NCBI GenBank assembly: GCA_949358305.1
Contig: OX442314.1
Location: forward strand, 9,796,001-9,860,000
Origin: Strigamia acuminata
Lineage: Eukaryota
Direction of reading: 5' to 3'
Length of the DNA: 64,000 nucleotides
Both the position numbers and the translations under genes were made by a program. Within the stretch, counting starts at the first letter, position 1. Each line of letters begins with the position of its first letter. Positions 40,861 through 45,545 of the stretch are shown here, in pieces. Below the pieces are notes generated by a model. It was not told the origin of the DNA and searched no databases. It worked only from the letters and a program-made list of their open reading frames with translations.

Positions 40861-43800
40861 ATGGAACAATCACAATCCGATGAATCACATATAATTTCCA
40901 TTTTTTTTAAATTAGCATTTTGGCCTTTTTGGTCCTTGAAGGATTTAATTTGGTAATATAATTTTTTTTTAAAAAACTCAAAATTTTTTTTAAAACTTTT
41001 TTTTTAAATTGATAGGAGAAAACCAACGACCACAGACAAATGTGAATTAATTCAACCTACAGTGTACTCCCAAGAAACCAGAATGTCAAACCGAGTCCAC
41101 GATAACGACTCGTCCACGAGGGGAAATCGAACGGGCAGGGACGGCGACCAACGCCGACCCGACCCCACGAGCACCTCAAACCGATCTTCCCAGAGCATCC
41201 TCGCTCACAAAAGAAAAAGGATTTCTTAACCAATCCCAAGCCGCATGTCCACGAGCGGACGACAAGGAACAACAGAAAGGAAGCAGCAAGCAGAACTAAC
41301 TCGCCATTAAGTGACCCCGAGTCTGAATTTGAGAATAATAAGCACAAGCCAAAGAAAAAAGCTCGAGACAGAGACGCAACGCTCCTTTCACGTCCAAGTT
41401 ACACCGAAGTAACGAGCGAGGTCGGCCACTTGACCAAGCTGTTAACGAAAGCGTCAGACGGCAGGACTGCACAGGAAGAGAATGTAACAAAAATAGTCTT
41501 TTCTTTTTCGGGAAAAATAAACTGCGACCAAAACAAAAATAAAACACTAGACGATGTACGAGTTTCTACACTGACTCCACTACCAACCATGAATATTCGT
41601 GATGAACATGGACAAACAAATAAGGCAGGGCAAGCAATATTAGAACCAATGGAAAAAATTAGACAATTTGATGAAGGAAACAGTGCGAGAAATACAAACA
41701 CCAGCCAAGCACGTCGACGTACGAACATCTCGAACACTGACACTTATTCAACCAGTTTGAGTGACATCGTGGATCAACAAATACAAATTGACGCGAGTCG
41801 CACAACAGATGAACGAGAATGTATCGGTGTAAACCAAAAGGGAAGGGAAGAAGCGCTGAAGCAAAGAAAGAAGCATTGTCACAAGCAATGGAACAATAAA
41901 AAGCCGCCAAACAATTCGAAAAATCAGCCAGATTGGCCACAAGGCCGACGGCTACATCATTGTCACCACTCTGAAAATAATGACAATAAAGTTCGCCACA
42001 AGAAGGAGAATAAACAACAAGAACGGTCTCAGTCACCATTAATCACCTTAATTCCGTTGCATCCCACGCATAACAAGTTTTATGGAGACAAACATGACAT
42101 TCAAAAGAAATGCAAAGGAATTCGATGTCAATCATTTCACAATAACCAAGATTTGTTGCCGGAAAATATGAATGACAAACCAGAGCTTTTGCAAGAGGAC
42201 CAATCAAGTCCTCATCAGGAAACTGTCCAACAAAAACAGCCCGACGTAACTCCAGCCCAACCGGAGCAAGCGATTTCGGAGAGGGAGGAAGCAGAAGAAA
42301 GCACTTCTGAAAATGATAAAACACATCATCCTCACTGTGCCAAACAGAAATGTGACGAACATCATCCCGAGCGAGAAGACAGACAATGGAATCGATTGTT
42401 ACCTTCAATGAACAAATATAAAGGCACCCCCTGTCTAAATGAAAGCAAAAAACTATAAGACTGCGTTCAGGAGCCTAACCAATCAAGCACGTTGCATAAT
42501 CCCAAAGTTGACTGTCAAATTAGGGCCTCTTCACGCAGCCCGATAAAAACCAGAGCAACGGTGGAATTAAAACAGCTAGAAAAAATGGCTCAACCACCTC
42601 CAGTTGGGACCTTACAAACTCCTCAAGTTACTAAGCCCACCAGAATGCAAAACCAAAAAGAGAAACGAAAAAAGACAAGAGAAAAAAAGAACCGACTGGC
42701 GCAGAGTCAAGCGGCCAATTGTGAACCATTTGCAAGGAAGTGCCGACCGCCCGATCTCACTATGAAGTTCTACAATAAAGAGTTTGTTGCTAACCGCTCC
42801 TTCTCAGAGCTCAAGAGAGCGAATCAGTTAGACGAAGACATCTTGGAGGGAGAGGAGATAAAGAAAGCAACGATAATTCTGGAAGAAAATCAAGAAAGGC
42901 CAAAAATGGAGAAAGGAGCATTAAAAACAGATTATGAGCAAGACAAACTATGTCCAAACTTCAAGGACAATTGGAGTGAGCCAGACAGCACTAGAATGAT
43001 AGAAGTGCAGTCAACTCTGAAGAAACAGACCCTCTGTTTATTACACGAGCTCCCGCTGGCCAGCCACCCAGACAAGGCACAGACCCATTATCGAGCCAAA
43101 AAACTAGTATGTTGGCCGAGGATGAGAAAAAACACTTCCTATCTCATTGGACAATATCCCCAAGATGTTGCCACTGGGCGGATTAAGGTCTGTGCCCTCA
43201 CTAAACGCTTTGCTGAGGAGATCGCAGAGAATTTATTCGCTGCAGCACTGAGATTCAAATTCAAGAAAAAAGCATTATCAGACAATGACACGCAATTTGT
43301 CATTAAAATATGCATAGATTTTGGTGACAAATTAAAGAATATCCAGAGCAAAACATATGGATATGGGTACAAGTGGAATCAAAACATGATTGCACGGATT
43401 TTCGACAGACTTGAGAAAATTCACAATTTGGAAACGGATCTTCCATTCACGGACTCCGAAGCTAAGGACCATGTTTGGAAAGAAATTCACAAACTGCCCA
43501 GCGCAGCTAAGGATACTGCTGCCAGTCAGGCAGTTCAAAGAGACAGTTCCGGCATGAGCAGAGCTGGACAAGGCGACGATACTCACAAACTGCTGCAAAT
43601 AGTCCACAACTACAAATTAGAGCCTATAGATGTGGATTGTCTGACACATTATCGGCCAGAGGTTTCCCCGGAGACGTGGTTAGAGATTCAGTCAAAACCA
43701 GAACACATTCACCGCTGGATCAAGACTTTAATAACGCTGCCGACAGAAATTACAAATGGAGAACCAACTACAGTGGGACCCGGCCGCGCCAAGCACCAGA

Positions 43801-44696
43801 AACAAAGCAAAGCCTGTACAGCTCCCTCAATCGAAACTTCAATGACTGAAGCCCCAATAGATGATAAACAAAATTTAGTGGAGTTATCAAACGAGAAGTG
43901 GGGCGGTCAATTAACCCCAATTGATCCAGTCATCATTCAGGCGAGAAATATTCGCTCACGAGTCTGTGAGGAGATAAACCCTATCAACATTAACCAGCGA
44001 CATGACGATACAAACAGCCGACAAAGTCCCAATTGCAATGAACTCAAAGCATTTCTTCTTGAAATGGAAAACGCCAAAGTCGCCGTTGCCACTTTGTCCA
44101 ATACTGTTCGGGCCACCGTTAATCGAGAGGATATAAGCATACCTCCATCATTGAGCGACATGTGGAGCCGGATTGTCCCCCCGACAAGCGACATCCCCTA
44201 TGGTTTGACACACGACAGAGACCGACTGTCCCGGCCAATTACATCAGCTAGCCAACAGCCAACCAGTCCCTGGTGTGTCATTTCACCAGTTGCAGTTGGG
44301 CCCTCAACAACTTCACCATCGACTGACAATCGCGAGCAACAAGACTCATCACGGAACTCACAGAATCAACCCAGAGTACCGAGAGCACCAAAGTCAATTC
44401 CAACTCATACGGCTAGCCCACTTGTACTGACCATTGCCATAGAAACGTCGGCCCCCCACAACGACAGTGAAAATCTCGTTGTATTCCTCACATACTGGAG
44501 GCATACACAGACCGAAACAACAGGCAAACCAAAAAATAAACATGTTTTGTTCTCCAGGAATGACCAAAACGGCCTGCGTTCTATTCTCAACGGAAACCGA
44601 TTATTCCCGACACCTCACATCCCGGCATCAGCCTTAAGTTTTGATTATACGTTACCACGGGCTGAGAGCTGGAGGAGAGTTAGGGATCGCTTGTGA
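40861..44696 (+). pseudogene. Full-length gene B: host-like exon 1 plus a Gypsy-derived 3.7-kb exon 2, with a 4-nt deletion (~41195) and one in-frame TAA (42456-42458)
   Basis: Exon 2 starts at 41016, and ORFs 41430-42458 and 42492-44696 share a frame with a single stop between them. LHELPLASHPDKAQTHYRAKKLVCWP, ALRFKFKKKALSDNDTQF, HVWKEIHKLPSAAK and EQAISEREEAEESTSE align by eye to the Pol at 55852-59826. Confidence 0.7.
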
Positions 44697-45545
44697 ACAC
44701 CCCGTGTTCAAAGCTGGGGGAAGGACGTGTGGTGAGCAAAGTGGATAAATATTCTCCCCAAGCGGATATTTGCCCTTTGACTCACTGCAATAGACGGGTC
44801 GTTCCCCTCGTGTTGGCTCCGCCTCTCCCTGAGCAGGTGTGTGCCCCGAGGGGAGTGAGGTGACGGGTGGCAAGCCCCCATTGGCTGTGCCTGCCCTTCA
44901 CACTGACCCATAAAAGGGAGAAATTCCCGCCAAAAGACAGAACTTACACAAACGACACCAAGAACACAGCAACTACCTCACCGTCAGGCCAACTTCAACT
45001 ACAAGTTAGGATTGATCGAGGATCGCTGAGTAAAGTGCAAACTGTAACTCTCACGAAGTCACTTGCGAGCTATTCCTGCGAAAGCAAGAGAATAGCCCTT
45101 GTGAAATCATCCAGAATAATCGCCCAGACGATTATTCGCCGAAGTAAGTGTCCGTGTGCTTTGTAGGGAACCCCAAAGTTCCTAGACGAGGCCTCTGCGA
45201 CGCTAAACCAAACCCTAGACAACAGGCACGGATAGAAGACTCGAAAGAGCATTCCACCGCGTCCGTGACGACGAATCCGTGACGAATTGACGACAACTCG
45301 AGACGCCGTCTTTGTTCCGCCGACCACGCGGAACCCGAGACGCCATCTTAGAAAGTCCTTTGTTCGACTCTGACCAAGTCGATATATTTTATCACTAAGT
45401 GTATTTTAAGGCCTTCAAGCCTCTTGAATAAATAACCTATTCATTTTAATACATTTGGTATTCATTTGGGTATTTACATAATTGATCACAGGTAAAGTAT
45501 TACACGTTAAGCGCTATTTAAACCTATACCAAGTAGGACGCAACA
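44692..45545 (+). mobile_element. Gypsy LTR related to 51689-52506; probably the 3' LTR of the decayed element forming gene B exon 2
   Basis: TGTG...GGACGCAACA termini and long blocks shared with 51689-52506 (e.g. ACAGAACTTACACAAACGACACCAAGAACACAGCAACTACCTCACCGTCAGGCCAAC). A purine-rich tract lies upstream, and there is no matching TSD. Confidence 0.88.

What the first reader, a model, noticed from the sequence alone, without database searches (positions are those of the whole stretch)
40861..45545. Chimeric ~1258-codon gene: membrane-anchor exon spliced to a scrambled but open Gypsy-derived exon
Seen: restoring the 4 nt that units 1-4 retain and reading through one TAA gives a continuous frame from exon 1 (40861) through 41016-44696, stopping in the first bases of an LTR. 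Pieces align by eye to the neighbouring Gypsy but out of order and strongly diverged. The Pol C-tail (EQAISEREEAEESTSE) comes before the integrase zinc-binding and core remnants, which lack the CxxC and most of the DDE context. Possible ORF3 pieces follow (IRSRVCEEINP vs IRERVGPRIDP; PNCNELKAFLLEME vs PTLGELQAHQAECE). Inference: so much amino-acid change with so few stops suggests the frame was kept open by selection. It could be a domesticated or decoy retroelement protein under a host exon, with the LTR supplying the poly(A) site.
Basis: partly seen in the sequence, partly recalled or inferred. Interest (0 to 1): 0.8.

Follow-up and report, generated by a model that had tools for sequence, protein, structure and literature searches.

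The report
Enzyme-less Gypsy family keeps frame open
This is a twice-broken piece of an apparently 25-30-copy, enzyme-less Gypsy-derived repeat joined to the front of a probable small host gene; the repeat family keeps a 3.6-kb reading frame open while its amino acids drift, likely because its RNA must be translated to be copied.

Summary
The open frame is real: 1 stop in 1,165 codons against 44-72 in the other five frames. So are the Gypsy pieces: a gag fragment, then a Pol tail, then a gutted integrase. The ORF3 matches are chance, the membrane anchor is unsupported, and the stop lies 31 nt before the LTR. Three public runs (two studies) change the reading. From about 41110 to the LTR the sequence stands at about 25-30 times single-copy depth. 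Most other copies run on upstream into different, gag-like DNA instead of the host exon, and their contigs do not share this locus's two breaks. All 7 measurable length differences among copies inside the frame are multiples of three, yet differing sites show no third-position excess (21 of 60). The integrase remnant lost 19 of 41 conserved residues without gaining a stop. Best reading: a non-autonomous Gypsy-derived family selected to stay translatable rather than to keep a protein sequence. One copy was 5'-truncated into exon 2 of a small host-like gene and now decays. A 7.6-kb array, variable in copy number, repeats a 283-aa short form. Domestication is unlikely but not excluded. No RNA was available.

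The parts
40861..40952 (+). exon 1 of a small host-like gene family (30 codons plus 2 nt); weakly hydrophobic
   Evidence: paralogue at 7788-7873 with ATG and GT at the same places; hydropathy; no RNA
40953..41015 (+). predicted GT-AG intron, 63 nt
   Evidence: sequence; paralogous 62-nt intron 7874-7935
41016..41110 (+). host-like start of exon 2; junction with the element at about 41105-41110
   Evidence: peptide similar to paralogue exon 2 from 7937; contigs of other copies leave the window's sequence upstream of 41110 in X1, X2, X3 and depth steps up there
41128..41204 (+). gag N-terminal-like fragment in its native frame (matches 54255-54329)
   Evidence: DNA score above all 300 shuffles; protein 8 of 300
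41195..41196 (+). frameshift of this copy: 4 nt shorter than units 1-4 and most contigs of other copies
41662..42147 (+). 486-nt block (162 codons) absent from about half of the other copies
   Evidence: joint at 10-15 times single-copy depth in three runs
42240..42323 (+). Pol C-tail fragment (Pol 1309-1336), 82% DNA identity to the neighbour
42456..42458 (+). in-frame stop of this copy, not shown by the contigs of other copies
42945..43694 (+). integrase remnant with two large in-frame gaps; CxxC, first Asp and Glu lost; third codon positions saturated against the neighbour (29%)
43695..44696 (+). 333 codons with no detectable parent, ending at the stop 44694-96
44716..44725 (+). polypurine tract
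   Evidence: sequence
44728..45545 (+). 3' LTR, 818 nt, TG...CA, 81.6% identical to the neighbour's LTR 51689-52506; AATAAA at 45427
14019..14933 (+). one of four array copies of the truncated chimera (exon 1, intron, exon 2 to just past the unit junction), 283 aa, uninterrupted
7788..8140 (+). host-like paralogue (two exons, about 96 aa), present in each array unit
51689..62919 (+). neighbouring Gypsy (LTR, gag with one in-frame stop, intact Pol, ORF3); a relative of the donor(s)

Best explanation
The locus is the 3' part of a likely non-autonomous Gypsy-derived LTR element, apparently one of 25-30 copies, joined in frame to the first exon and a half of a probable small host gene, and it now carries a frameshift and a stop. 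Shown: the mosaic of gag, Pol-tail and integrase pieces in their native frames, PPT plus LTR, the junction near 41110, the many other copies, the in-frame length differences, and the lack of third-position excess. Inferred: (1) the family arose by deletions and recombination between two Gypsy lineages, because the tail and LTR are 82% like the neighbour while the integrase piece is saturated at third positions. (2) Its RNA is carried by enzymes of a Gypsy like the neighbour. (3) Copies with early stops or frameshifts propagate poorly, because the RNA has to be translated to near the PPT to stay stable or to reach particle-assembly sites, so the frame is kept while the encoded residues drift. 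(4) A DNA-level deletion removed this copy's 5' LTR and 5' gag and fused it to the host exon, in frame by chance. Cut off from transposition it decays neutrally, and a later 7.6-kb tandem amplification repeated its 5' end.
For: Depth over the element side is 20-38 times single-copy depth in X1, X2, X3, against 7.9, 5.1 and 1.0 times over exon 1. Contigs of other copies leave the window's sequence upstream of 41110 in all three runs; by eye their short loose ends resemble the neighbour's gag just upstream of 54255. 7 of 7 measurable length differences inside the frame are multiples of three (p 4.6e-4) against 3 of 7 outside (Fisher p 0.035). Differing sites fall 22/17/21 on codon positions 1/2/3. 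22 of 41 conserved integrase columns are kept with 0 stops in 250 aligned codons; a neutral model giving that loss expects 5.6-7.8 stops there and 26-36 in 1,190 codons. PPT and an 818-nt LTR 81.6% like the neighbour's. Precedent: IAP 1-Delta-1 has a deletion that leaves a gag-pol fusion ORF acting in cis (PMC6466679, passage); Ty1 RNA may need minimal translation for stability (PMC3945221, passage).
Against: A 5' LTR, PBS and target-site duplications on the other copies were not seen; the loose ends at 41110 are only 31-54 nt long. DNA right of the LTR (45644-46105) is also at 14-20 times single-copy depth, so some copies could share this flank as segmental duplicates. Summed contig depth is not a true copy number. 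The variant sites are the best-supported 40 of 682 and 40 of 179 rows and mix private with subfamily differences. For 5 of the 7 length differences the tool could not say whether letters lie between the sides. Contigs drop rare variants, so frameshifted sisters may be hidden. The translation-in-cis step rests on analogy only, and defective Ty1 elements are mobilised efficiently in trans.
Confidence: 0.55

Rival explanations
1. Same anatomy, but the family's fusion protein itself does a loose job for the element (a basic, disordered RNA chaperone acting in cis), so length and charge are kept while the exact sequence drifts.
For: All four segments are hydrophilic with net positive charge (+5 to +12); the review describes the IAP 1-Delta-1 fusion protein as acting in cis; the Atlas recognition score for the 745-aa piece is 2750, in the range of real families.
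Against: No third-position excess; blocks of up to 162 codons are dispensable in half the copies; A-rich DNA (36% A) gives Lys/Asn-rich protein by itself; the Atlas says the score does not show that a gene is real.
Confidence: 0.17
2. One reading: a domesticated or decoy chimeric host gene. An intact allele is spliced from exon 1, ends in the LTR, and was kept by host selection; this haplotype is a null allele.
For: The fusion is in frame and is present in contigs of three runs from two studies. Units 1-4 derive from a haplotype without the frameshift and keep a 283-aa open chimera in several copies. AATAAA is conserved in the LTR.
Against: Two breaks in this copy, as many as neutral decay predicts. 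The open frame is a property of sisters that mostly lack the host exon, so it predates the fusion. No capsid domain or intact catalytic core to act as a decoy. Exon 1 hydrophobicity is unremarkable. The array is absent from X3 by depth.
Confidence: 0.1
3. The other copies are not mobile elements but segmental duplicates of one resident element-derived gene under another promoter, kept open by the host.
For: The flank right of the LTR is also at 14-20 times single-copy depth; this genome makes tandem arrays.
Against: Subfamilies differ by 2-13% with shared large deletions, as master-copy bursts give; PPT and LTR are intact; the upstream loose ends look like gag by eye; host genes normally show a third-position excess.
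Confidence: 0.12
4. No selection: young debris whose frame is open by inheritance and chance.
For: No third-position excess; the true integrase donor is unknown, so part of the residue loss may be donor divergence or misalignment at gap edges.
Against: Even at d=0.15 the model expects 15-21 stops in 1,190 codons; 7 of 7 length differences are in frame; all recognisable pieces sit in their native frames.
Confidence: 0.06

Closest known systems
Mouse IAP 1-Delta-1 non-autonomous LTR element (PMC6466679, passage; the primary paper PMC2413153 was not held, only its title was seen)
   Same: internally deleted, needs enzymes in trans, keeps one fused gag-pol frame thought to matter in cis
   Different: one clean 1.9-kb deletion with recognisable gag and pol; here several deletions, two donors, three quarters of the frame unassignable, and neutral-looking residue drift in an invertebrate Gypsy
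Defective interfering RNAs of coronavirus MHV and arterivirus (titles only, in the reference list of PMC4395149)
   Same: the titles state that translation of an open frame, not the encoded sequence, is needed for propagation
   Different: RNA viruses, not integrated LTR elements; not read beyond the titles
Non-autonomous LTR retrotransposons with coding remnants: TR-GAG, LARD, degraded derivatives (PMC13570524, passages)
   Same: modular reshuffling, chimeras between families, degraded RT/RH/INT fragments, many truncated derivatives
   Different: the passages seen describe fragmented remnants, not one long frame kept open; plants
LTR-mediated retrocopies (PMC5131818, abstract)
   Same: host coding sequence fused in frame to LTR-element sequence
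   Different: those are mRNA copies flanked by element on both sides; here the host part keeps its intron and has no element upstream
Arthropod Ty3/Gypsy Pol (best hit Strigamia maritima T1IZB8, 39% to the neighbour's integrase)
   Same: source of the integrase remnant
   Different: relatives keep 71-100% of the conserved columns, the remnant 54%

Membership tests
autonomous Ty3/Gypsy element | protease, RT and RNase H domains | tested here: not met
   Pfam finds only Integrase_H2C2 (1.7e-5, just under the cut-off) in the two pieces
autonomous Ty3/Gypsy element | integrase HHCC and DDE intact | tested here: not met
   two His and one Asp kept; CxxC, first Asp and Glu in gaps
non-autonomous LTR retrotransposon | 3' LTR with PPT, related to an autonomous family | tested here: met
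   818-nt LTR, 81.6% to the neighbour's, purine run upstream
non-autonomous LTR retrotransposon | many copies sharing the same internal structure | tested here: met
   20-38 times single-copy depth and shared deletions in three runs; depth is an estimate
non-autonomous LTR retrotransposon | 5' LTR and PBS at this locus | tested here: not met
   host-like exon and intron lie upstream of 41110; the LTR matches only 51751-52506 in the window: this copy is 5'-truncated
non-autonomous LTR retrotransposon | 5' LTR, PBS and target-site duplication on other copies, at dispersed sites | not testable with these tools
   no genome held; contigs too short
domesticated retroelement gene | intact frame at a single or low-copy locus | tested here: not met
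   two breaks here, many sisters; an intact allele elsewhere is not excluded
domesticated retroelement gene | purifying selection on the protein | tested here: not met
   21 of 60 differing sites at third positions, p 0.44; a coarse test on capped tables
domesticated retroelement gene | spliced, expressed transcript | not testable with these tools
   no run on record as RNA was listed
domesticated retroelement gene | orthologues in related species | tested here: inconclusive
   no close relatives; related species may be missing from the collections
LTR-mediated retrocopy | intron-less host sequence flanked by element on both sides | tested here: not met
   intron retained, no element upstream

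The most novel reading that the evidence does not exclude
A selfish family pre-built a 1,200-codon 'empty' open frame kept only for translation, and the host captured it whole under its own exon. An intact allele is spliced and expressed as a new gene, and the 283-aa short form is being amplified to 5-8 copies in some individuals because it interferes with the resident Gypsy: gene birth from transposon frame-keeping, caught while still polymorphic.
Probability: 0.1. Interest if true: 0.8.

Novelty: new variant of a known kind. Interest (0 to 1): 0.42.

Why it matters
A 3.6-kb frame that loses catalytic residues and shows no third-position excess, yet tolerates only in-frame length changes, is the pattern expected if translation itself, not the protein, is selected. 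If full-length copies confirm it, this family is a natural test of whether LTR-element RNA must be translated to be propagated, so far argued mainly from IAP 1-Delta-1, Ty1 and viral defective RNAs. It also warns that a long ORF with domain remnants is not evidence of domestication, and it shows a route by which ready-made long frames can come under a host exon.

Tried and rejected
No genome held, so no genome-wide paralogue search or true dN/dS. No RNA holder listed. Homologue searches with the 745-aa piece: none at near or shorter lengths; one hit among 1.84 billion representatives, an ordinary integrase at 30%; no usable Atlas hit and no model; nothing in the PDB below E 0.36; none of 38 pattern matches in metagenome contigs confirmed. 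ORF3 of the neighbour: no Pfam family under E 0.1 and no Atlas hit. ORF3 origin of the 3' third rejected. A second integrase C-terminal remnant at 41450-41760 was not supported (132 of 300 shuffles; the profile finds nothing in the 450-aa piece). LTR start at 44692 rejected for 44728. A 63-nt joint with GT..AG ends (42490-42554) is not read as an intron because it also stands in the run guessed to be DNA, in a divergent single-copy contig. No earlier findings by place or sequence. No tRNA genes. Paper searches listed no title or abstract start describing a Gypsy-derived non-autonomous family with a long open, neutrally drifting frame; the library lacks most subscription journals. No structure was predicted.
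Full report
Setting. The window is AT-rich animal-like DNA. The neighbour's integrase finds a centipede protein first and then insect and spider proteins, so an arthropod host is likely but not shown. Positions 1-41755 hold a 7.64-kb tandem array whose units end at 7276, 14917, 24039 and 31674; the fifth unit runs on at 41755 into the rest of the frame. 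No genome is held.

The observation. Unit 5 is 4 nt shorter than unit 2 at about 41195, and there is one in-frame stop at 42456-58. Over 41199-44693 the frame has 1 stop in 1,165 codons; the other five frames have 44-72 and composition predicts 63. I kept the pieces separate throughout. Three Gypsy matches are significant. A gag fragment at 41128-41204 beats all 300 DNA shuffles. The Pol tail at 42240-42323 is 82% identical in DNA, 25/28, 24/28 and 20/28 by codon position. The integrase at 42945-43694 has 250 aligned codons, 38% amino-acid identity, and DNA identity of 0.60, 0.64 and 0.29 by codon position. All sit in their native frames. The tail does precede the integrase, but the different divergences point to two donor lineages rather than one scrambled element (inference). 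The ORF3 matches are chance (75 of 300 and 43 of 300 shuffles). About three quarters of the element-side codons have no detectable parent. The LTR is best placed at 44728-45545: 818 nt like the neighbour's, 81.6% identical, after a purine run, with AATAAA at 45427. The stop is therefore 31 nt upstream of the LTR.

The host-like part. Exon 1, the intron and the first 30 or so codons of exon 2 have a paralogue in every array unit (7788-8140, about 96 aa) and a third, degenerate exon-2 copy at about 40510-40725, with in-frame indels between them. Exon 1 and its paralogue differ at 6, 6 and 10 first, second and third positions. That suggests a small gene family but does not prove it; the introns are about as alike as the exons. 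The membrane anchor is weak: best 19-residue hydropathy 1.14, reached by 33 of 126 stop-free 30-codon stretches of nearby DNA; the paralogue's 1.96 is reached by 9 of 126.

What public runs show. Six runs were listed, none on record as RNA. I laid four on 40100-47000 and three on 40650-42230; X6 had too little cover to use. X1, X2 and X3 (two studies; X1 or X2 may be the window's source) behave as genomic: their contigs include the intron and intergenic DNA, and a long contig at 46310-47000 with 0-1 differences gives single-copy depths of 90, 326 and 23. Against these, exon 1 stands at 7.9, 5.1 and 1.0, and the element side at 20-38 in the bins I computed. The 486-nt-deleted form (10-15) and the undeleted form (8-14) add up to 18-28. 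The tool warns that summed contig depth is no copy number, so 25-30 is an estimate. In all three runs contigs leave the window's sequence upstream of 41110-41112; by eye these 31-54-nt loose ends resemble the neighbour's gag just before 54255. So most copies are not led by the host exon. X3 holds the exon-1 stretch identical to unit 5 at single-copy depth, with a contig across the junction (records 17 and 18): the fusion is shared, the array is not. No listed contig shows the window's stop at 42456, and most of the depth in X1, about half in X2 and 42% in X3 is listed with the longer form at 41195. Contigs drop rare variants, so I cannot say which alleles of this locus carry the breaks.

Selection on the frame, not on the residues. 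Net length differences among copies inside 41110-44696 are 486, 192, 27, 63, 45, 60 and 39: 7 of 7 in frame (p 4.6e-4), against 3 of 7 multi-base ones outside (Fisher p 0.035). Left out inside: two joints of unknown length (41474, 44212), a second in-frame variant at the place of the 63, a compensating +1/-1 pair at 41311/41314, and the window's own break. Left out outside: 1-nt LTR indels, joints to paralogues or the MITE, and two X2 joints (40179, 45938), both out of frame. For five of the seven the tool could not say whether letters lie between. Tables 4 and 5 hid 27 and 29 rows; those were complete. Sites where other copies differ from the window fall 22/17/21 on codon positions (60 distinct sites, p 0.44 for a third-position excess). 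They come from the best 40 of 682 and 40 of 179 rows, after dropping the stop site and 6 sites outside the frame. In an alignment with 26 of the 40 proteins fetched, 41 aligned columns are at least 80% conserved; the remnant keeps 22, the relatives 71-100% (they define the columns, so their figure is inflated). An analytic neutral model needs about 0.3 substitutions per site for that loss and then expects 5.6-7.8 stops in the 250 codons (0 seen, P 0.004-0.0004) and 26-36 in 1,190. At half that distance it still expects 15-21. The donor is unknown and gap edges align poorly, so the distance is rough. For this locus the picture reverses: its closest sisters differ at 10 of 416 bases, where 2.5-3.8 stops are expected at d=0.02, and it has one stop and one frameshift.

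Mechanism. I commit to a non-autonomous family whose RNA has to be translated to near the PPT to be propagated by a helper Gypsy (0.55 for anatomy and mechanism together; about 0.8 for the anatomy alone). The need for translation is inferred. Precedents: a review says the IAP 1-Delta-1 deletion leaves a gag-pol fusion ORF that works in cis (PMC6466679, passages; primary paper not held). A Ty1 paper suggests minimal translation may be needed for RNA stability, but also says defective Ty1 elements are mobilised efficiently in trans (PMC3945221, passages). Two titles on viral defective RNAs state the same principle (reference list of PMC4395149; not read). Reshuffled non-autonomous LTR families with coding remnants are described in sugar beet (PMC13570524, passages). 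LTR-mediated retrocopies differ in being mRNA-derived and flanked by element on both sides (PMC5131818, abstract). No supplements were read. That nonsense-mediated decay removes RNAs with early stops is general knowledge, not tested here.

Rivals. The array therefore came from another haplotype without the frameshift, and a fully open allele of the fusion may exist. An assembly phase switch near 37200 would give the same pattern.

Verdict. A new variant of a known kind: a non-autonomous LTR family with an unusually long, drifting but open frame, seen here through one truncated, decaying copy fused to a host-like exon. Interest 0.42. The searches named under Tried and rejected found no description of such a family, within a library that lacks most subscription journals.

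Noticed in passing
window 37420-40089, minus strand: A second enzyme-less LTR element: 188-nt LTRs with 2 differences, a 5-nt target-site duplication, and one 673-codon frame with weak gag, zinc-knuckle and protease hits but no RT or integrase; its site is empty in the array unit checked. TR-GAG-like, and also open well past its last domain.
   Followed up: partly
window 51689-62919: Neighbouring Gypsy: a 623-codon charged N-terminal gag part separated by one in-frame stop from a 433-codon part, an intact 1,384-codon Pol, and a 716-codon ORF3 with no Pfam or Atlas hit. Its 3' LTR is not in the window. The PBS looks tRNA-Pro-like (recalled, not tested).
   Followed up: partly
window 1-41755: The 7.64-kb array has near-identical units and, by depth over exon 1, about 8, 5 and 1 copies in X1, X2 and X3: a recent copy-number variant.
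   Followed up: partly
window ~37200: Unit 5 switches from near identity with unit 2 to about 99% with different insertions: unequal crossover between haplotypes or an assembly phase switch.
   Followed up: no
window 13143-13368 and 46109-46335; 21821-22540: A ~225-nt inverted-repeat MITE in units 1-4, absent from unit 5, with a relative at 46109; unit 3 has an extra ~1.5-kb insertion with 151-nt inverted arms.
   Followed up: no
window 45644-46105: DNA right of the LTR stands at 14-20 times single-copy depth; either an unrelated repeat or a flank shared by some copies.
   Followed up: no
window 41696: One X3 contig leaves the window here into DNA that by eye resembles the neighbour's Pol tail near 59510, hinting at a further Pol 3' remnant; direct alignment of 41451-41760 to the neighbour was not significant.
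   Followed up: partly
window 40881-41057: Further low-depth contigs about 88% alike to exon 1 and the intron (X1 record 2, X2 record 10) suggest more members of the small host-like family elsewhere.
   Followed up: no
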